Counted from the stretch's first letter, positions 1-7,093 are shown. The stretch is 7,093 nt of DNA from Candidatus Iainarchaeum sp. (GCA_937968065.1 CALBUD010000010.1:1-7093); one strand, 5' to 3'. Program-made: numbers and translations. Notes: generated by a model from the sequence alone, not told the origin.

Positions 1-380
1 ACCACTTCATAAAGTTCTCACTCTAAAGCAGGGGCTATTAATTCTATTGTATTATTTGTAGGCTGTAAGTAGTCTGTTCAAAGTTGAAGTTTGACTCAAT
101 CTTTAAATATTAATAATGGATTAATTGTATTTTCATAACTATAATCTAATGAAAGAGTTGTTTGTCATTCTGTAGCTACAAAACTATTGTAAGCATATCA
201 TCATTGCAGAGGAGTTCAACTTCAACCTAAAGCATTAACCTTCACTTCACTTCAAGTTCTAGTAACAGATGTATTAGTTCAAGGTAATATCTCTGTAATC
301 ATCCTGTCTGTGTTTTCAGGAAGTTTTTCTAGTTTATCTCCGTCAGCTAAACGGAAATTTTGTATATCATTTAACGCCAT
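1..380 (-). CDS. Virion structural protein with a tail-fibre-like N-terminal domain. Partial: the 3' end runs off the left edge of the window.
   Basis: ATG at 380 lies 4 nt after the TAA of the upstream gene. The frame stays open to position 1 once 10 in-frame TGA codons are read as Gly. Translation: MALNDIQNFRLADGDKLEKLPENTDRMITEILPGTNTSVTRTGSEVKVNALGGSGTPLQGGYAYNSFVATEGQTTLSLDYSYENTINPLLIFKDGVKLQLGTDYLQPTNNTIELIAPALEGELYEV... The pattern F.ATEGQT...L.Y....L..F.DGV.L..G.DY......I.L resembles N-terminal domains of podovirus tail-fibre proteins. That resemblance is from memory and was not searched. Confidence 0.45.
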
Positions 381-384
381 ATTA

Positions 385-654
385 TTATGTGTTAGTTCTT
401 ATAAAATTGATTATATGTTTTTGTGTTAATGGATTATCAATGATTGTTTCAATTTCTTCAACTGTTTTTGTTTTAAGTTTATTTTGGTCTGTTATACCAA
501 GCTCATATAAATAAGCTACAGTTGCAGGACCAATTCATTTAACTTTATGTAAATCAGAAGAACTCATATTTCCTTTAACAGCTTTTATTTCTTTTGTTTC
601 TTTTATTTTTGATAGAGCTTCTTTAGCTCTTTGTATATGTGCTATTGTTTTCAT
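385..654 (-). CDS. Small helix-hairpin-helix (HhH) DNA-binding protein, 89 aa
   Basis: ATG at 654, TAA at 385-387, one in-frame TGA at 535-537. Translation: MKTIAHIQRAKEALSKIKETKEIKAVKGNMSSSDLHKVKGIGPATVAYLYELGITDQNKLKTKTVEEIETIIDNPLTQKHIINFIRTNT. The segment L.KVKGIGPATVAYLYELGI matches the HhH consensus (h.GhG...A..L) only if the TGA is Gly. Confidence 0.7.
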
Positions 655-675
655 ATATCACTATTAATAAATAAT

Positions 676-712
676 AAAAAAAAGGAGAAGAGGAAAACTT
701 TCCCCTCTCTCC
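676..712 (-). terminator. Rho-independent terminator downstream of the major capsid gene
   Basis: On the minus strand, 11 nt after the capsid TAG, there is a GGAGAGAGG / CCTC(T)TCTCC stem of 9 bp with one bulge (684-712). It has a roughly 10-nt loop and is followed by a run of 8 T (plus-strand A-run 676-683). This is the only G+C-rich hairpin with a T-tract seen in the window. Confidence 0.7.
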
Positions 713-723
713 TCTTTTAAAGC

Positions 724-1812
724 CTAGACAATAGCACCATTAGCACCGTTGTCTGAACCAATTATAACTTCTGGATTATAGAAGTCCATAGTAAATTCAG
801 TATCTATATCAATAACTGTAGCTTTATTTTTCTTATCTTCGTAAGAGTCAATTTTAGCTTCATATAAAGGTATAAATCTAAATGCTTCTAATTCTCTTGA
901 TAATTCAGTGTTAAGTAAGAACCATTCATTACCTGAACCAACTTTACCTTTTACAGAAGGTTGTCCTAATGTAGGTAATACCATTAAGTTCACTTTAAAT
1001 CCATTCATTTGGAAAATTGAAACTGTTATATCATTTGATATAGCAACATCAGCAACTTGTGAAGCAACTTCTTTTCCATCATTTAAGATTTTTCTAGCAT
1101 TAGCTTCACCTTCTGGACCAACTATTAATGTATAAGCAGAAGCAGCAAAACCAACGATAGTACCGTTACCATCTTTCATACCTCTAGCTTTTTCAATAGC
1201 TTTTTCTAAATTCACTTGGTTTAAAACTCTATCAGTTCCTTCCATTATATTAGATTGAACTTCACCTGTTTCACCAACTGGATGAGCATTAAAGAATAGA
1301 GGATTACCATATGGTGTAGAAGAACCAGGACCATAAGCATTAGCATTATTAAACCCTTCTATCAACACTCTAGTAGCTAAGAAGTTTCTAGCTTTTTTAA
1401 CTCTAGCTGAAAGTCTTGCCATTTTATTAGCAATTTTTTGTATTTCCATTTTAACTTCTGTAGGTAAAGTTGAAGCTGATGTAGCTTTCATTAACCATTC
1501 AGTAGCAGCTCTTGACATTGTATGAGCTCAGGCAAATCTTTGAGTTTTAAATCCTTTTGAAGGACCTTCTTCATCACCTAATAATGGAATTTCATCTAAT
1601 TCACCTATACTTTCTAAGTCTAATACACCTTTAAGAGAAGTTATTTCTCAGTCTGGTCTATCAACAGGAGTGTTAACAAAACCTAAAGCTTCTGCAACAC
1701 CATCTAATGTAGGGTCAATATTCATTTCATCAACCACTTTTAATATATTACTTCTGATAAGTTTAAAACCCTCAACAGTAGTTAATAATCAATTATCTGA
1801 AAATCTAGCCAT
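724..1812 (-). CDS. Major capsid protein (presumed HK97-fold), 362 aa
   Basis: The 264-aa track ORF (724..1518) extends upstream through three TGA codons (1528-1530 and two further upstream) to the ATG at 1812. The stop is TAG at 724-726. N-terminus: MARFSDNGLLTTVEGFKLIRSNILKVVDEMNIDPTLDGVAEALGFVNTPVDRPDGEITSLKGVLDLESIGELDEIPLLGDEEGPSKGFKTQRFAGAHTMSRAATEWLMK... Size, position after the scaffold and decoration-like genes, the terminator directly downstream and preference for canonical Gly codons all fit a highly expressed coat protein. Family assignment was not verified by search. Confidence 0.75.
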
Positions 1813-1834
1813 TTTTACTTTTTTATATTATATA

Positions 1835-2218
1835 TTAAACAATTTTAAATCTACCAACTCTTGTATCAATTATTTCTACAAGTTCAACTTGGTCACCTGC
1901 AGCACCTGTTACAACAACTTGTGAAGCATTAATATCAAATTTGTCACCAACCATAGCTTGTGTTAAATCAGCGTCAGTGTTTAAATCAACTCTTAAGTTT
2001 TCATTTTTTCTTACAAATAAGATTTCTTCATTTGTTCAGTAAGTGTGTGAACCTGTAGCAACTCATTTAATTTCTTGTGTACCATCTGCTGAAACAACTT
2101 TACCAGAAGTTGCATCTATAGACAATAATTCAGAGTTGATAACAGATAAGTTGTCAGAAGCTATAGCTCCTTCATTCCCTGTAAAACCGTATCAAGTTTT
2201 TCTTAATTTATTTGCCAT
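1835..2218 (-). CDS. Small head-associated protein, possibly a capsid decoration protein (DUF2190-like), 127 aa
   Basis: ATG at 2218, TAA at 1835-1837, three in-frame TGA codons. Translation: MANKLRKTGYGFTGNEGAIASDNLSVINSELLSIDATSGKVVSADGTQEIKGVATGSHTYGTNEEILFVRKNENLRVDLNTDADLTQAMVGDKFDINASQVVVTGAAGDQVELVEIIDTRVGRFKIV. It appears beta-rich and sits between the scaffold and capsid genes. The pattern GVA...G..(h)V....L.......G..h.....V resembles small decoration proteins, which is a weak recollection only. Confidence 0.4.
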
Positions 2219-2238
2219 ATTTATATGTTAATAATTAT

Positions 2239-2940
2239 TTATTTATTTTTATAATTAGAAAGAACATTATCAAAGATTGAGTCAATTTCACTATTCTTTG
2301 ATTGTTGTTCTTCTCAAGAGGAAACTCCTCAAACACCACTAGCTCATCCTCAGTCTTTCATTAGTTTATATGCTAAGTCCTCAGGAGAGTATTTACTATT
2401 AAGAACTATATTACCTGCTCTTTTAACTCTTTCTTCAATAGGAAGAGAGTCAGAAATATATTTAAGTTCTTCTTCAACTTTAGCTACATCTTCATCAGAT
2501 AGAAAGTTATCATATTTACTTTTAAGCCTTGTTATTTCAGCTTCCATCTCTTTCTTATCTTGTTTCCATTTCATTAGCTTAAGTTCTTTTTCCAATTTAG
2601 TTGCTTTATCTTCTTCATAGTCGTCACTCTCTTCTTCTTTTGAAGACATAAAAGAGTCGCCATAAACAGCTTTAGCTTCTTCTAAACTAGAAAATCAATA
2701 AAGTTCTTTAATCACTTTATCTTGTAATTTTTTATCCTGAATTTCATTTATGTAACTTTTATCTTGTTTAGCTAGCCTAACTGCTAAATCAATTTTTTCT
2801 TGGTTACTTCTTGTATATTCAGCTTGAAGACTTTTATATTGGTCTTCTGGCACTACATTAGTACCTTGAGGAGATTGCCCACCATCAGTAGGTTCTTCTC
2901 ATTCTAGGAATTCCTTTTTATCAGCTTGTTCCTTGTTCAT
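2239..2940 (-). CDS. Scaffolding protein, 233 aa
   Basis: ATG at 2940 lies 2 nt after the upstream TAG. TAA at 2239-2241, six in-frame TGA codons, and the 99-aa track ORF is included in frame. The protein is highly charged with coiled-coil character (…KATKLEKELKLMKWKQDKKEMEAEITRLKSKYDNFLSDEDVAKVEEELKY…). It ends in a Gly/Ser linker, KDGGGASGVGGVSSGEEQQ, and lies upstream of the capsid gene. No protease gene is present in the module, consistent with a scaffold-dependent head. Confidence 0.65.
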
Positions 2941-2942
2941 AA

Positions 2943-3224
2943 CTATTTTTTGTTATTTTCTAAAATATTATATTTCCTAAAGAAACTCTTGAAGAATTTA
3001 TTTCATTGTAAAAATCCTCTTACCCATTCATCTGTAACATTTCATTCAATGAGCTCTTTACACACTCTATTATATGCAAAAATGCCTATTTTGTCAAGTA
3101 TGGCTTTATCTAGGGAAGAAAGCACTGTTTTTTCTTTCTCCTCTAGCTCAAGCTCTCTAATTATTTCAATAAGTTTTTTTTCTCTTCTCCACTCCAAAAA
3201 ATCTGTTATTATATTTTTTTTCAT
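2943..3224 (-). CDS. Hypothetical protein, 93 aa, either stand-alone or the -1 frameshift extension of the upstream gene
   Basis: ATG at 3224 overlaps the end of the upstream CDS by 16 nt. There are two in-frame TGA codons and the stop is TAG at 2943-2945. Translation: MKKNIITDFLEWRREKKLIEIIRELELEEKEKTVLSSLDKAILDKIGIFAYNRVCKELIEGNVTDEWVRGFLQGNKFFKSFFRKYNILENNKK. No motif recognised. Confidence 0.5.
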
Positions 3225-3694
3225 AGGTTTGGCATAAGTTCTAAAATTCTATTTTGAAGCTCCTCTTCTGATAAGTCAAGCAGCACTTCATTTATATTAG
3301 CTTCAATTTCTGTTTTTGGATTGTAGGCTTGATTAGTTTTTTCCAGCATTCTAAATGAATAGTCTACTACCTCTTTGTCTGTAAGTTCTCTATTTCACAT
3401 AATAGCTTCTTCAACATTTTGTTCAGCAAAGTCCCCAATTCTTTTTCTTCTTGAGTCTTTAATGCCTTCATAAGCTTCTTTTAGTTCTTCATATTTTCAT
3501 AATGTTTTATAGAAATATGGTGTACTGAAGCCTACATCTGCTACAGCATCTAAAAGCTTAACAGGTTGATTTGGTTTATATTTTCCTGTTTGCTTATCAT
3601 ATCAATAAGCTATAAGGTCAAATACTCTATAAAACTTATCTTTAGTTTCTTGTGTTAAAATTTTTCTATTTTTTGGTCTTCATCTTTTTCTCAT
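3209..3694 (-). CDS. AT-hook / helix-turn-helix DNA-binding protein, possible small terminase subunit, 161 aa
   Basis: ATG at 3694 lies 7 nt after the portal TAA. TAA at 3209-3211, five in-frame TGA codons. Translation: MRKRGRPKNRKILTQETKDKFYRVFDLIAYGYDKQTGKYKPNQPVKLLDAVADVGFSTPYFYKTLGKYEELKEAYEGIKDSRRKRIGDFAEQNVEEAIMGNRELTDKEVVDYSFRMLEKTNQAYNPKTEIEANINEVLLDLSEEELQNRILELMPNLGKKI. An N-terminal GRP motif, then an HTH-like segment (LLDAVADVGFSTPYFYKTL), then an EE(L/F).EAY...R helix is the layout of many phage small terminases. This is from memory and was not searched. Confidence 0.5.
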
Positions 3695-3701
3695 ATTCGT
3701 A

Positions 3702-5456
3702 TTATTTGTTATTAGCTAAACTACCAATAAGTGGAACTGGATTTGATTGGTTTCTTTGTTCTGGTGGAACATAGTTTGGATTTGATGGGTCATTAGCATC
3801 ATTACTCACCCCTTTCATTTGTTTCTTTATTTTATCAAGTCTTGAAGCAGCAGATATGTTATTAGGAGTTTCTCATAATAATAAATCAGAGTCAAGCTTA
3901 AATGCTTTTGCACCTTCAACAAAATATGCTTTAGGGTTCATTATAGGTTTACCATCTTCTCAAATTAAATTACCAAAGATTTGTCCAAACTCAAGAAGTT
4001 TATTTTTTTCTTTTTCTTCACTAACTCACAATATAGACTCAGTGATAGGAAGAACATTAAACATTCAAGAAATTAATCAAGGGGCAACAGTGAATGTACC
4101 ATATCCATTCTTTATACTTTTAACATTACCATCCTTATCCATACTTTGACCCTTAACAGGTATTTCGTGAGTTTTATGTTTATATTCAAACTTAATATTA
4201 CTCATTCTAAGTCTAGCAAGTCTAGCAAAGAAATTGTAAGCATTTTGTTTTAATAATAAGTTTGTTCTCTTTCTTGCACTTTCTATTTTACTTTCTGTTT
4301 TTGTTGCTGTTTCACTAGCACCTAATATTTGAGATTTAAAGTCAATTCAAGTTTTAATAATAAGGTCTTCATCAACTTTTCTTTCAGCTTCTATAACACT
4401 ATTAGCATTTATATTAGGAGAGAAATGAGAGATTGCTTCTTTTTCAACTCTAGCAAATTTATTAGTACCTATTTCTACAGTTGTTTCATCAAAGTCAGCA
4501 TCTGGGTCAATAGTTGTAAAACCAAATTGTGCTTTTATTACATCTATATTTAAAGCCCTAAGAGCATCTTTATAATTTATATCATTTTCTAACATTTCAT
4601 ATTCACCTGCATCATATGTTCTATCTTCTAAAGCATAATTAGAGAACGAACAAAAAGGAAGTTCTTTATGTTGATATGGTATAATAGAGTTTCTAATTTC
4701 CACGCCATTAACTAATACAATAAGAGAGTCTTCTGCTTTATTATAATATCTAAGCTCAGTTACTAAGTTGTCTTCATTTAAAGGACTAAATTCAACATCA
4801 CCTTCTGAGTTTAAATAATAATATTGACCTTTAGGTATATTAGTTTCACTAATAGTGTAGTTTGGATTATTTGAGAATGTGTTTAAAAATTTTCTTCTAT
4901 CCCAAGTTCTAATCCATATAGCTTCATTAGCTGTTTCTATATCATATCAATCGTGATAGAAATTTTCCCAAGGTATATATTCACAATAAACACCATCATA
5001 CTCTGTCATAGTGTTTTCATTCCATTTAATTTCATCTCCAGATAGGTATGGCTCTTTTATTTTTCTTTTAATAGTTCTAAGCCCTTCATACATATATCAG
5101 TTACCATATTTAAGAGCCGAATAAATAACCTTCATTATTTCCTTATCTGTCTTACTTGTTATCCATTCATAGTCCCAAACTTTTTTAATTATTCTTGAAG
5201 CCTTTTTTGCTTCTCAATCAAGAGGTATAAATTCATATTCTTGCACTCAGTTTAATATTTCAGCAGCTTTACTATTTATAATAGAGAAAGCTATATTTGT
5301 ATCATAAGAGCTTTTAGTCGGGTCAGCTTCTAATGTTTTTTGTCCTATATAGTTCTTTTTCCATTCCCTTTGTTTTACAGAGAGTGTTCTTTTAAGCCCT
5401 CATAAGTATTGAAGCCTCTCCTCTGCAAAAGCTAAAGCTTTTTTTTCTTTTTCCAT
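3702..5456 (-). CDS. Portal protein, 584 aa
   Basis: ATG at 5456 lies 24 nt after the terminase TAA. TAA at 3702-3704. Eleven in-frame TGA codons and no TAA/TAG were found when each codon was read by hand, and the 118-aa track ORF is included in frame. N-terminus: MEKEKKALAFAEERLQYLGGLKRTLSVKQREWKKNYIGQKTLEADPTKSSYDTNIAFSIINSKAAEILNGVQEYEFIPLDGEAKKASRIIKKVWDYEW... The C-terminus is disordered (…NDANDPSNPNYVPPEQRNQSNPVPLIGSLANNK). Its size, its position immediately after the large terminase and its portal-like N-terminal layout support the call. Confidence 0.75.
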
Positions 5457-5480
5457 ATTGTTATTATTATTTACATATTA

Positions 5481-6926
5481 TTAATAAGGTTGTCTATAGT
5501 TTCATTTATAATATCCCACCTTGTTCCATTTCTCTCAATGTTTTTCTTGAAACTTTCTTTCTGCTCTAGTGATAGTTTTATTAGGTTTTATCGCCCATAT
5601 AATATATCTAAGAGCGTCAAGTTGATGGTCGTCTTCCTTCACAACTTCTCAGTCTTTACCTTTTTCTTTATAGTGATGTTGCTCAAGTTCTTTTACTAAT
5701 GTGTCTTCCAATTTATTGCTAATAAATATTTTTTCATCAGCAAACATTTGATTAAGTTTAAATATTGAAGCCTTCCTATTACTCTCATCTCTTTCACCTT
5801 TCTCCCATTTATTAGCAGGTTTAGTTTTAAGTCCCATCTTAGCCAACTCAGTTCTTTCTCTCTTAGCTCAAGAGTCGGCAACTATATATTCCAAACTTAT
5901 TTTATATTTCCTAACAAGAGCTTCAATCTTTTCCTTTATTTCAGACAGATATAATCAAGACTGATTAAAACCATCAAATATGTAATGGTTATTATCACTA
6001 TCAACAGCAACTAATACAAATCAAGTGGGGTGGGTGATACCTAAGTCTAGTCCTCAATAGAACCTAACTCAAGGAAGTGTATGGGGGTCAAAATGAGCTA
6101 CTAGATTATTAAGCCTTGAAAAACTATTATAAACTAATCAAGTAGGGGGTATAAACTCACCATTAAGCCTCATCTTCTTATCTTGCTCACTCAAATTATT
6201 AGCCCACGAATGGTCGGCGTGTTTGTTCTCTAATGAGCTAAATAAGAACTTAATTCTATTATCATTTTCTACATATTCACTCTTATAAAAGTATTCATAT
6301 AGAGGTGTTAATCAAGAAAGAGGAGTCATTGTTATCAACATTTGAGACTTACCTGTACGGGTTCTAGCTAACAGCTCTAACCATACACCTTTATCTGTAG
6401 GTTCTTCATCAACAACTATAAAATCTGGATTTCACCCTTGAACCCTTTCCCTACCTTGGTCGTAAGTTTTAATACTAATTTTAGCTCAATTAATAAGCTT
6501 TATCTCTTGCAACACTCAAGAGCTTCTTTTAGGAGCACCCTTAATAAGCTCTGGTGGAATTCTTGTATTTGAATATTCTCATAATAGATAAGGTTCAATA
6601 GTTCAGGAAACATTACTTCAAGATTTAGTTACAATCCGTATATTCTTTTTAGCTCATATATAGGGAAGTTTATATTTAGTTGAATATTCTCCTATAGCTA
6701 AATTAACTGCTGTGTACATTCAATAGAATGTTTTTCAGGCTCAGTTTCATCATTGAAATAATATTTGCTTATATCTAGGTCTACCGTCTTCTTTCTTTAA
6801 ATTAAGGACAGCGTGAACTTCTTTTTGATGTTTTTGTAGTTCAACCTCAGTGATAGCATAAAACTTTTTTCTCTTATCTAATATGGAATAGAGTTCAGCA
6901 ATTTTTTGTTTATTGTTTTGTTCCAT
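5481..6926 (-). CDS. terL: Terminase large subunit (ATPase plus RNase-H-like nuclease), 481 aa
   Basis: ATG at 6926, TAA at 5481-5483, 22 in-frame TGA codons. Walker A is GGNGAGKT (6729-6752, four of the Gly are TGA). Walker B is DFIVVDEEP (6402-6425). The coupling motif is LITMTP. Other terminase-typical segments are NGEF and PTGLVY. The nuclease motifs are FYGGLDLG (6039-6059) and KEDDHQLDALRY (5604-5633). The 65-aa track ORF is in frame with all of these. Confidence 0.93.
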
Positions 6927-6959
6927 ATCATTTTATTATTTATTTCTGTTTGCCTATAC

Positions 6960-6988
6960 ATTATATAAGAAAAGAAGGGTTTTGTCAA
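6960..6988 (-). promoter_or_regulatory. Sigma70-type promoter driving the terminase/head operon
   Basis: The minus strand reads TTGACA (6988-6983), an exactly 17-nt spacer (aaacccttcttttctta), then TATAAT (6965-6960). This is a perfect consensus -35 and -10. It predicts a start near 6952 and a leader of about 27 nt before the terL ATG at 6926. Confidence 0.6.
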
Positions 6989-7018
6989 GTTTGGCTTAGA
7001 TTAGCTAACGAGAGAGAA

Positions 7019-7036
7019 TTGGCTTAATATAGCCAA
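7019..7036. repeat. Perfect inverted repeat TTGGCT-N6-AGCCAA upstream of the promoter, a candidate protein-binding site
   Basis: TTGGCT (7019-7024), taatat, AGCCAA (7031-7036). The 8-mer TTGGCTTA also occurs as a direct copy at 6991-6998, immediately upstream of the -35 box. An 8-nt palindrome TTAGCTAA sits at 7001-7008. Confidence 0.35.
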
Positions 7037-7093
7037 CTATATTTTTTGTTCTTTTTTTAATATATTCTATTACTTTTAGTTTTGTATTCTCAT

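What the first reader, a model, noticed from the sequence alone, without database searches (positions are those of the whole stretch)
1..6926. Stop-codon recoding: nine genes are read through about 63 in-frame TGA codons, and only TAA/TAG terminate
Under the standard code the minus strand gives only scattered fragments of 60-264 aa. Hand translation shows that every interruption of the long minus-strand frames is TGA. The counts are terL 22, portal 11, AT-hook protein 5, 93-aa ORF 2, scaffold 6, decoration-like 3, capsid 3, HhH 1 and fibre-like 10. Reading TGA as sense gives nine back-to-back genes with 2-24 nt spacers and a coherent phage packaging and head gene order. All eight complete genes end in TAA (6) or TAG (2). 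A standard-code gene caller would call this region pseudogenised or mostly non-coding.
Basis: seen in the sequence. Interest (0 to 1): 0.85.

Follow-up and report, generated by a model that had tools for sequence, protein, structure and literature searches.

The report
Phage head genes with TGA as glycine
This 7-kb piece is the packaging and head gene block of a tailed phage in which TGA encodes glycine rather than stop or tryptophan; this is the code of Absconditabacteria/Gracilibacteria, such phages are already known, and public databases translate this one wrongly.

Summary
Nine back-to-back minus-strand genes carry 63 in-frame TGA codons and no in-frame TAA or TAG (about 196 expected). The eight complete genes end in TAA (6) or TAG (2). 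Coding density rises from 26% to 95.5% when TGA is read as sense.

It is glycine (code 25), not tryptophan (code 4):
- TGA restores the TerL Walker A motif (GGNGAGKT), an AT-hook (RKRGRP) and a helix-hairpin-helix (KGIGPATV).
- Pfam scores are far higher with Gly than with Trp.
- In homologue alignments, TGA columns behave like GGN columns and unlike TGG columns.

TerL, portal (podovirus-like fold) and an HK97-fold capsid are verified. The other gene labels rest on position.

Code-25 phages of Absconditabacteria and Gracilibacteria are already described (Borges 2021; Liu 2023), so this is a new member of a known kind.

Three smaller points are new:
- The window's only CGG codon lies on a conserved Trp position. 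The same pattern holds in relatives and fits the predicted Absconditabacteria CGG-to-Trp reassignment.
- TGA is avoided in the capsid gene in all six phages compared.
- Public protein databases store this clade translated with Trp at every TGA.

The parts
5481..6926 (-). terL, terminase large subunit, 481 aa, 22 in-frame TGA, TAA stop
   Evidence: With TGA read as Gly: Pfam Terminase_6N 41.5 bits and Terminase_6C 28.7 bits; PHROG 2 E=3.5e-27. The Walker A motif reads GGNGAGKT only if TGA is Gly. 109 homologues were found.
6636..6638 (-). The only CGG codon in the window (terL codon 97), at a position that is Trp (TGG) in most homologues; probably read as Trp
   Evidence: Column composition: W 62, L 16, Y 10, R 6, K 5, no G. 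All sampled 'R' at this column are CGG, while flanking synonymous sites vary.
3702..5456 (-). Portal protein, 584 aa, 11 TGA, TAA stop
   Evidence: AlphaFold model: pLDDT 74, pTM 0.69. Foldseek top hits are portals of SU10, DEV, N4 and T7, with E values down to 1.8e-18. 2 of 8 orthologues hit PF16510 P22_portal.
3209..3694 (-). 161-aa DNA-binding-like protein with an N-terminal AT-hook (RKRGRP, the G encoded by TGA), 5 TGA, TAA stop; function not established
   Evidence: Motif read directly from the sequence. Orthologues sit at the same position in L047, L048, L050, L002 and L003. There is no significant HMM hit.
2943..3224 (-). 93-aa ORF, 2 TGA, TAG stop; its start overlaps the previous gene by 16 nt
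   Evidence: Orthologues occur at the same position in seven relatives.
2239..2940 (-). 233-aa acidic protein, scaffold-like by position only, 6 TGA, TAA stop
   Evidence: No HMM hit. The label is inferred from its position upstream of the capsid gene.
1835..2218 (-). 127-aa protein between the scaffold-like and capsid genes (decoration-like by position only), 3 TGA, TAA stop
   Evidence: No HMM hit.
724..1812 (-). Major capsid protein (HK97 fold), 362 aa, only 3 TGA against 30 GGN, TAG stop
   Evidence: AlphaFold model pTM 0.67. It gives 312 PDB matches at E<=0.001, and all of the 50 best listed are phage capsids or encapsulins. Orthologues hit PF25209 (E=1.5e-7) and Mu-like_gpT.
385..654 (-). 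89-aa helix-hairpin-helix protein, 1 TGA (the G of the GIG motif), TAA stop
   Evidence: Pfam HHH_5 scores 23.5 bits with Gly against 16.6 bits with Trp.
3..380 (-). N-terminal 126 aa of a fibre- or tailspike-like protein, 10 TGA, runs off the window
   Evidence: Orthologues in L001, L002 and L003 are 348-514 aa, Gly/Ser/Thr-rich and repetitive. The L002 orthologue has a weak Cap_depo hit.
6960..6988 (-). Perfect sigma-70-type promoter (TTGACA, 17 nt, TATAAT) about 35 nt upstream of terL
   Evidence: 12/12 match. Both hexamers are conserved in L047 and L048 while the flanking sequence diverges.
3069..3097 (-). Second perfect sigma-70-type promoter match, inside the 93-aa ORF and upstream of the scaffold-like, decoration-like and capsid genes
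   Evidence: 12/12 match. Conservation was not tested.
688..709 (-). Intrinsic-terminator hairpin followed by a T-run, just after the capsid gene
   Evidence: RNA fold gives -22 kcal/mol, z = -3.1, and 0 of 200 shuffles fold as well.

Best explanation
The window is a fragment of a tailed, podovirus-like double-stranded DNA phage genome. It carries a promoter, terL, the portal gene, two small genes, a scaffold-like gene, a small head gene, the major capsid gene, a terminator, an HhH gene and the start of a fibre-like gene.

All of it is written in genetic code 25. UGA is decoded as glycine, and only UAA and UAG terminate.

The phage most likely brings no decoding machinery of its own. It relies on a host that has a tRNA-Gly(UCA) and lacks release factor 2. 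That points to a member of Absconditabacteria (SR1) or Gracilibacteria, the only cellular lineages named with UGA=Gly in the papers read here.

In this AT-rich genome (30% GC) TGA is simply the AT-richest glycine codon. It supplies 39% of glycine codons in the window and 80-87% in the AT-richest relatives (24-26% GC).

Shown here: TGA is sense and means Gly, and the identities of TerL, portal and capsid. Inferred: the host lineage, and the dependence on host tRNA and release factors.
For: Frame integrity: 63 in-frame TGA and no in-frame TAA/TAG in 2264 codons, against about 196 expected.

TGA is glycine:
- Three independent motifs are restored only by Gly: Walker A GGNGAGKT, AT-hook RKRGRP and HhH KGIGPATV.
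- Terminase_6N scores 41.5 bits with Gly and is not reported with Trp. Terminase_6C scores 28.7 against 19.6. HHH_5 scores 23.5 against 16.6.
- In the 108-homologue TerL alignment, TGA columns (G 33%, W 31%) match GGN columns (G 32%, W 27.5%). True TGG columns are W/F/Y/H. The portal and capsid alignments show the same.
- The 'W' in those columns is a database code-4 translation of TGA. P0001 is this window's TerL stored with W at all 22 TGA sites.
- In 10 homologues with normal Trp and Gly content, TGA columns are G 42% and W 3%.
- Composition agrees: GGN is only 4.3% and TGG 0.75% of codons, and adding TGA gives Gly 7.1%.

Phage identity.

The host reads the code:
- All 9 genes in the window carry TGA.
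- In relatives, TGA is equally dense in the oppositely oriented, non-structural gene arm.
- No tRNA gene is present in the window or in about 105 kb of related loci.
- The only relative in GTDB species genomes lies in a MAG titled 'Patescibacteria group bacterium'.

[quoted passage not shown] Most predicted Absconditabacteria phages use code 25.
Against: - No host link was shown for this contig. There is no CRISPR spacer match, no prophage junction and no co-binned host DNA.
- Only about half of any related genome could be read, so a phage-encoded tRNA(UCA) elsewhere in the genome is not excluded.
- The Patescibacteria MAG link rests on a 3.5-kb binned contig, which is weak evidence.
- No protein-level evidence (mass spectrometry) is available for Gly at UGA.
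Confidence: 0.88

Rival explanations
1. The code is table 4, with UGA read as tryptophan. The phage would then infect Mycoplasma/Spiroplasma-type hosts, or be one of the TGA-recoded gut phages described by Borges et al.
For: The genome is low in GC (30%). The public protein databases already hold these proteins translated with W at TGA. TGA-to-Trp is the more common phage recoding.
Against: - Trp would reach 3.5% overall, 5.6% in TerL and 7.9% in the fibre-like protein.
- It would destroy the Walker A, AT-hook and HhH motifs.
- It removes the Terminase_6N hit and lowers the Terminase_6C and HHH_5 scores.
- TGA columns track GGN columns, not TGG columns.
Confidence: 0.02
2. The phage uses UGA=Gly but infects a standard-code host. 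It would switch the code during infection with its own suppressor tRNA-Gly(UCA) and interference with release factor 2, like the TAG- and TGA-recoded gut phages.
For: Such code-switching phages exist. The window covers only late genes, which is where those phages concentrate their recoded stops. Only parts of related genomes were read.
Against: - Relatives carry equally dense TGA in the opposite-strand, non-structural genes.
- No tRNA was found in any locus.
- In L002 and L003, 80-87% of all glycine codons are TGA. That is hard to reconcile with any phase of translation under the standard code.
- The CGG pattern also matches an Absconditabacteria-type host.
Confidence: 0.07
3. The region is a decayed, pseudogenised prophage in a standard-code genome, or an assembly or sequencing artefact, and the TGAs are true stops.
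For: A standard-code gene caller finds only fragments.
Against: - Decay would also produce TAA and TAG, and none occurs in frame against about 196 expected.
- Homology runs through every TGA.
- Dozens of independent metagenomes hold full-length syntenic relatives with the same property.
Confidence: 0.005
4. The in-frame UGAs are selenocysteine sites or programmed read-through sites.
For: UGA is the selenocysteine codon in bacteria.
Against: There are 63 sites in 9 genes, at positions that are conserved glycines in homologues. No Rfam element of any kind, which includes SECIS families, is found in the window.
Confidence: 0.005

Closest known systems
Code-25 (UGA=Gly) phages predicted to infect Absconditabacteria/Gracilibacteria (Borges et al. 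2021 preprint, 10.1101/2021.08.26.457843; Liu et al. 2023, PMC10746230)
   Same: Dense in-frame TGA in essentially every gene, TGA aligning with Gly in terminase, termination at TAA/TAG only, and low GC (searches compared).
   Different: No host link was shown for this contig. Neither paper text read here mentions CGG or CGA usage, or gene-specific avoidance of TGA.
TGA-to-Trp (code 4) and TAG-to-Gln (code 15) recoded gut phages such as Lak, crAss-like, Agate and Jade phages
   Same: A stop codon is used as a sense codon in phage structural genes, so a standard-code gene caller fails.
   Different: Those phages infect standard-code hosts. Their recoding is concentrated in late genes, and they often carry suppressor tRNAs, RF1 or TrpRS. 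Here the amino acid is Gly, every gene is recoded, and no tRNA was found.
Absconditabacteria genetic code as predicted by Codetta (Shulgina and Eddy 2021, PMC8629427): UGA=Gly plus CGA/CGG=Trp
   Same: The window has UGA=Gly, no CGA, and one CGG (4.4 per 10,000 codons) lying on a conserved Trp column. Arg is encoded almost only by AGA/AGG.
   Different: That prediction was made for cellular genomes. Here the signal is in a phage clade and rests on about a dozen CGG codons at a handful of sites.
Podovirus-type head modules (SU10, N4, T7 and LUZ24-like phages)
   Same: The portal fold matches best to podovirus portals. The nearest GenBank TerL proteins are from 39-47-kb phages, including LUZ24-like Pseudomonas podoviruses, Arthrobacter and Pelagibacter phages.
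   Different: TerL identity to them is only 23-27%. There is no DNA similarity to any GenBank phage.

Membership tests
Genetic code 25 (UGA = Gly) | In-frame UGA inside conserved protein-coding genes, with UAA/UAG as the only terminators | tested here: met
   63 in-frame TGA, no in-frame TAA/TAG, and stops TAA x6 and TAG x2.
Genetic code 25 (UGA = Gly) | UGA positions correspond to glycine in homologues and in family profiles | tested here: met
   Motifs, Pfam score differences and column statistics for TerL, portal and capsid.
Genetic code 25 (UGA = Gly) | tRNA-Gly with anticodon UCA, and no release factor 2, in the translating cell | not testable with these tools
   The host genome is unknown. 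No tRNA is present in the window or in related loci.
Genetic code 4 (UGA = Trp) | UGA positions correspond to tryptophan in homologues | tested here: not met
   TGA columns are never aromatic-type. TGG columns are W/F/Y/H, whereas TGA columns behave like GGN columns. Pfam hits are lost with Trp.
Tailed phage (Caudoviricetes) packaging and head module | Terminase large subunit with an ATPase (Walker A/B) domain and an RNaseH-like nuclease domain | tested here: met
   Terminase_6N and Terminase_6C both score above their curated cut-offs. PHROG 2 E=3.5e-27.
Tailed phage (Caudoviricetes) packaging and head module | Portal protein fold | tested here: met
   Foldseek gives portal hits with E down to 1.8e-18 and TM about 0.55-0.6.
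Tailed phage (Caudoviricetes) packaging and head module | HK97-fold major capsid protein | tested here: met
   312 PDB matches at E<=0.001; all of the 50 best listed are capsids or encapsulins. Orthologues hit PF25209 and PF10124. The model is of moderate quality (pLDDT 63, pTM 0.67).
Code-switching recoded phages of standard-code hosts (Borges model) | Recoded stops confined to or enriched in late genes, with early genes readable in the standard code | tested here: not met
   In L001, L003 and L051 the opposite-strand, non-structural genes carry TGA at similar density. The window itself holds only late genes.
Code-switching recoded phages of standard-code hosts (Borges model) | Phage-encoded suppressor tRNA, release factor or aminoacyl-tRNA synthetase | tested here: inconclusive
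   None was found in the window or in about 105 kb of relatives, but no complete genome was read.
Absconditabacteria extended code (CGA/CGG = Trp) | CGG/CGA codons align with tryptophan rather than arginine | tested here: met
   The 8 CGG codons have a column profile of W 0.57 and R 0.06. That matches TGG (W 0.60, R 0.02, n=73) and differs from AGA/AGG/CGT (R 0.56-0.70, n=295). None of the 12 lies in a conserved Arg column. The sample is small and partly selected.
Absconditabacteria extended code (CGA/CGG = Trp) | Host tRNA(CCG/UCG) with Trp identity elements | not testable with these tools
   The host is unknown.

The most novel reading that the evidence does not exclude
The phage is written in a doubly altered code: UGA=Gly and CGG=Trp, with CGA avoided altogether.

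Its single CGG (terL codon 97) would then be a tryptophan. The same holds for the rare CGG codons of its relatives.

This would give independent, phage-side evidence for the Arg-to-Trp sense-codon reassignment that has so far only been predicted by computation in Absconditabacteria. It would also point to that lineage as the host, or to those Gracilibacteria that are likewise predicted to read CGG as Trp.

A second strand is the consistent avoidance of TGA in the capsid gene. It suggests that UGA is decoded less efficiently or less accurately than GGU in the host.
Probability: 0.65. Interest if true: 0.55.

Novelty: new member of a known kind. Interest (0 to 1): 0.4.

Why it matters
Practical consequence: this contig and more than 100 relatives are stored in large public protein collections with Trp at every UGA. 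In the window's nine genes that is 63 wrong residues, plus probably one Arg that should be Trp. These errors weaken or remove HMM hits (Terminase_6N is lost entirely) and will distort structure prediction and phylogeny for the whole clade. Choosing between code 11 and code 4 by coding density alone cannot detect this.

Biological consequence: the contig adds a member to the small set of phages assigned to code-25 CPR bacteria. Its clade has no GenBank phage relative closer than 27% TerL identity.

The CGG pattern offers a cheap, independent test of a predicted bacterial sense-codon reassignment.

The capsid-specific avoidance of TGA hints that UGA=Gly decoding carries a cost.

Tried and rejected
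Searches that found nothing or could not work:
- DNA similarity of the window to GenBank phages gave no match.
- A sequence search of TerL against PDB, and profile searches with the portal and capsid alignments, gave nothing usable.
- The IMG/VR scan with TerL found nothing. Several of the tool's back-translated peptide patterns contain Gly as GGN, which cannot match TGA.
- The first GTDB scan failed for a similar reason. The tool chose the Walker A pattern with [GW], which back-translates to GGN or TGG.
- A hand-made DNA pattern for V.K..D[DH].[LI]DALRY gave 43 loci. Only one (L007, a Patescibacteria MAG) is a true relative.
- An exact look-up of the window's own TerL in the contig index was not on record.
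- The cluster look-up gave no names or sample information.
The database (Trp) versions were used instead, which lowers model quality a little.
- Campbell et al. 2013 is not held in the library.
- Rfam found nothing in the window or in relatives.

Explanations rejected: code 4, pseudogenes, and selenocysteine or read-through (see rivals).

CGA as Trp in this clade was considered but cannot be assessed. The window has no CGA. In the more GC-rich relative L001, CGA lies on invariant Arg columns, so that phage's host reads CGA as Arg.


Full report
**1. The observation**

Under the bacterial code the window yields only 13 ORFs of at least 60 aa. Those on the minus strand are 60-264 aa long.

When only TAA and TAG are treated as stops, the minus strand resolves into nine consecutive ORFs. 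No other strand or recoding scheme does this. Summed ORF length is 2300 aa (longest 591) with TGA as sense, against 669-927 aa on the same strand under the standard code or with TAG or TAA as sense.

The in-frame TGA counts are exactly those reported: 22, 11, 5, 2, 6, 3, 3, 1 and 10, total 63. No gene has an internal TAA or TAG. The eight complete genes end in TAA (6) or TAG (2).

Judged by the off-frame frequency of TAA and TAG in the same DNA (8.7%), about 196 such codons would be expected in 2264 codons of an arbitrary frame. None is seen (ln P about -205).

Coverage rises from 26% (code 11, minus-strand ORFs of at least 60 aa; 41% if spurious plus-strand ORFs are counted) to 95.5%.

One detail needs correcting. 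The spacers are 24, 7, -16, 2, 20, 22, 69 and 4 nt, not all 2-24 nt.

**2. Which amino acid TGA encodes**

Four lines of evidence give glycine.

*(a) Composition.* GGN codons make up only 4.3% and TGG 0.75% of codons, while TGA makes up 2.8%. Reading TGA as Trp would give 3.5% Trp overall, 5.6% in TerL and 7.9% in the fibre-like protein. Reading it as Gly gives an ordinary 7.1% Gly.

*(b) Motifs.* Three motifs are restored only by Gly:
- The TerL P-loop reads XXNXAXKT, which becomes GGNGAGKT.
- The AT-hook reads RKRXRP, which becomes RKRGRP.
- The helix-hairpin-helix reads KXIGPATV, which becomes KGIGPATV.

*(c) Profile scores for the same proteins with Gly or Trp.*

| Pfam family | Bits with Gly | Bits with Trp |
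|---|---|---|
| Terminase_6N | 41.5 | not reported |
| Terminase_6C | 28.7 | 19.6 |
| HHH_5 | 23.5 | 16.6 |

*(d) Homologue columns.*
- In an alignment of 108 TerL homologues, the query's TGA columns hold G 33% and W 31%. Its GGN columns hold G 32% and W 27.5%. Its TGG columns hold W, F, Y and H.
- The W in Gly columns is an artefact. The database entry for this very contig's TerL (P0001) carries W at all 22 TGA sites. Across homologues, W% and G% are anticorrelated and sum to about 8%.
- Portal and capsid alignments repeat the pattern. The capsid TGG columns are 100% W.
- In ten homologues with normal Trp and Gly content, the TGA columns hold G 42%, A 14% and W 3%.

**3. What the genes are**

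- **TerL** is secure.
- **Portal.** The 584-aa protein next to TerL has no HMM hit itself. Its AlphaFold model (pLDDT 74, pTM 0.69) matches the portals of SU10, DEV, N4 and T7, with E values down to 1.8e-18. Two orthologues hit P22_portal.
- **Capsid.** The 362-aa protein models as an HK97-fold capsid. It has 312 PDB matches at E<=0.001, and the 50 best listed are all capsids or encapsulins. Orthologues hit PF25209 and Mu-like gpT.
- **Other genes.** The scaffold-like, decoration-like, 93-aa, AT-hook and fibre-like genes have no family hits. Their labels rest on position and on gene order conserved in eleven related contigs.
- **Transcription signals.** A perfect TTGACA-17-TATAAT promoter lies about 35 nt upstream of terL. 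Its hexamers are conserved in two relatives while the flanks diverge. A second perfect match lies upstream of the scaffold-like, decoration-like and capsid block. A strong terminator hairpin follows the capsid gene (-22 kcal/mol, z = -3.1).
- **Relatives in GenBank.** The nearest GenBank phage TerL proteins are only 23-27% identical. There is no DNA-level match.

**4. How it most likely works**

The phage reads UGA as Gly throughout and needs a cell that does the same.

- All nine genes in the window carry TGA.
- In relatives, the oppositely oriented non-structural genes carry TGA just as densely.
- No tRNA gene occurs in the window or in about 105 kb of related loci.
- In the AT-richest relatives (24-26% GC), 80-87% of all Gly codons are TGA and GGN falls to 1.1-1.6% of codons. 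Such a genome could not be translated under the standard code at any stage of infection.

In the papers read here, the cellular lineages named with UGA=Gly are Absconditabacteria and Gracilibacteria. [quoted passage not shown]

The only true relative in GTDB species genomes sits in a MAG titled 'Patescibacteria group bacterium'. The host assignment is therefore an inference, not a demonstration.

**5. A second codon: CGG**

The window has almost no CGN codons: CGA 0, CGC 0, CGG 1 and CGT 2, against AGA 74 and AGG 14.

The single CGG is terL codon 97 (window 6638-6636). It falls in a column that is W in 62 homologues, with no G, and TGG in the two relatives checked at DNA level.

Six homologues show 'R' in that column. 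DNA was fetched for five of them. In each, the codon is CGG and it is the only CGG on the contig. Flanking synonymous sites vary, and CGT codons sit on invariant Arg positions.

I then predicted that other 'R' residues in pure-Trp columns of the portal alignment would be CGG. All three were: L051 at the W185 column, and L052 and L053 at the W32 column.

| Codon class | n | Mean W fraction in column | Mean R fraction in column |
|---|---|---|---|
| CGG | 8 | 0.57 | 0.06 |
| TGG | 73 | 0.60 | 0.02 |
| AGA/AGG/CGT | 295 | 0.01 | 0.56-0.70 |

Four further alignable CGG codons are. None of the twelve lies in a conserved Arg column.

This matches the Codetta prediction that Absconditabacteria, and some Gracilibacteria, read CGG as Trp, with CGG below 7 per 10,000 codons.

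Caveats:
- The sample is small and partly selected.
- TGG to CGG is a single transition, so a fresh Trp-to-Arg change would also produce CGG.
- The persistence of CGG at terL codon 97 in six lineages is not fully explained by either reading.
- The GC-richer relative L001 uses CGA as ordinary Arg. The clade therefore spans hosts with different CGN usage.

No paper in the searchable library reports this for phages.

**6. Gene-specific TGA avoidance**

The TGA share of Gly codons differs between genes in the window (chi-square p = 8e-5). Capsid plus decoration-like genes have 6 TGA to 40 GGN, while the rest have 57 to 57 (Fisher p = 1e-5).

The capsid gene has the lower share in all six phages compared:

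| Phage | Capsid TGA share | Other genes | Fisher p |
|---|---|---|---|
| window | 9% | 47% | 3.9e-5 |
| L001 | 3% | 23% | 0.0058 |
| L002 | 50% | 91% | 5.5e-7 |
| L003 | 27% | 84% | 1.9e-11 |
| L047 | 26% | 45% | 0.066 |
| L051 | 23% | 84% | 7.5e-11 |

The simplest reading is as follows. AT-biased mutation drives Gly codons towards TGA. Selection for efficient or accurate translation keeps GGT in the most highly expressed gene.

**7. Verdict**

The refinement is that the code is 25 (Gly), probably with CGG=Trp.

The phenomenon is known, so this is a new member of a known kind and of moderate interest. The useful by-products are:
- the database mistranslation of the whole clade;
- the CGG evidence;
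- the capsid-specific avoidance of TGA.

Noticed in passing
window 6636-6638 (-); also L047, L048, L049, L050 and L054 terL; L051, L052 and L053 portal: The only CGG codon in the window lies on a conserved Trp column. In relatives, the rare CGG codons also fall on Trp or hydrophobic columns and never on conserved Arg columns. This fits the predicted Absconditabacteria CGG-to-Trp reassignment.
   Followed up: yes
window 724-1812 and 1835-2218, compared with the other genes; capsid genes of L001, L002, L003, L047 and L051: The TGA share of glycine codons is much lower in the capsid gene (and in the neighbouring small head gene) than elsewhere. This holds in all six phages compared (window 9% against 47%; L003 27% against 84%).
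   Followed up: yes
Database proteins P0001, P0110, P0128 and P0183 (this contig) and most of P0002-P0180: Public protein collections store this contig's proteins, and those of most of the clade, translated with Trp at TGA (code 4). W% and G% are anticorrelated across homologues. For example, P0016 shows W 7.6% and G 0.2%.
   Followed up: yes
L002 1-11621; L003 1-21488; L051 1-20126: In the AT-richest relatives (24-26% GC), TGA is the dominant glycine codon: 87%, 80% and 80% of Gly codons. GGN is nearly extinct outside the capsid block. TerL and portal of L002 have 34 TGA and 1 GGN each.
   Followed up: partly
window 6960-6988 (-), 3069-3097 (-) and 688-709 (-): There are two perfect 12/12 sigma-70 consensus promoters. 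One is upstream of terL and is conserved in L047 and L048. The other is inside the 93-aa ORF, upstream of the scaffold-like to capsid block. A strong terminator lies right after the capsid gene. Together they suggest a separately boosted capsid transcript.
   Followed up: partly
L001 8342-10000; L003 7696-10000; L051 4764-6866; L047 1-1548 (the window holds only the last 167 nt, 6927-7093): A stretch of 1.5-2.3 kb immediately upstream of terL has no convincing ORF on either strand, even with TGA as sense. It is very AT-rich in L003 and L051 (18-22% GC) and has no Rfam or tRNA hit. It lies between the divergently oriented gene arms and its role is unknown; an origin, a packaging site or a regulatory region are possibilities.
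   Followed up: partly
window, 22 nt upstream of each of the nine start codons: No Shine-Dalgarno-like purine run precedes any start codon. The leaders are A/T-rich (for example AATAATAA) and every start is ATG.
   Followed up: no
L052 2064-2216: One relative has a 50-aa ORF with a weak HNH hit inserted between terL and the portal gene. The window and the other relatives lack it.
   Followed up: no
window 3209-3694 (-): The AT-hook protein has a weak HTH_AraC-like match at residues 42-68 and a conserved C-terminal segment (NPKTEIEANINEVLLDLSEEEL). It could be a DNA-binding packaging factor such as a small terminase placed after the portal gene. This was not tested.
   Followed up: no
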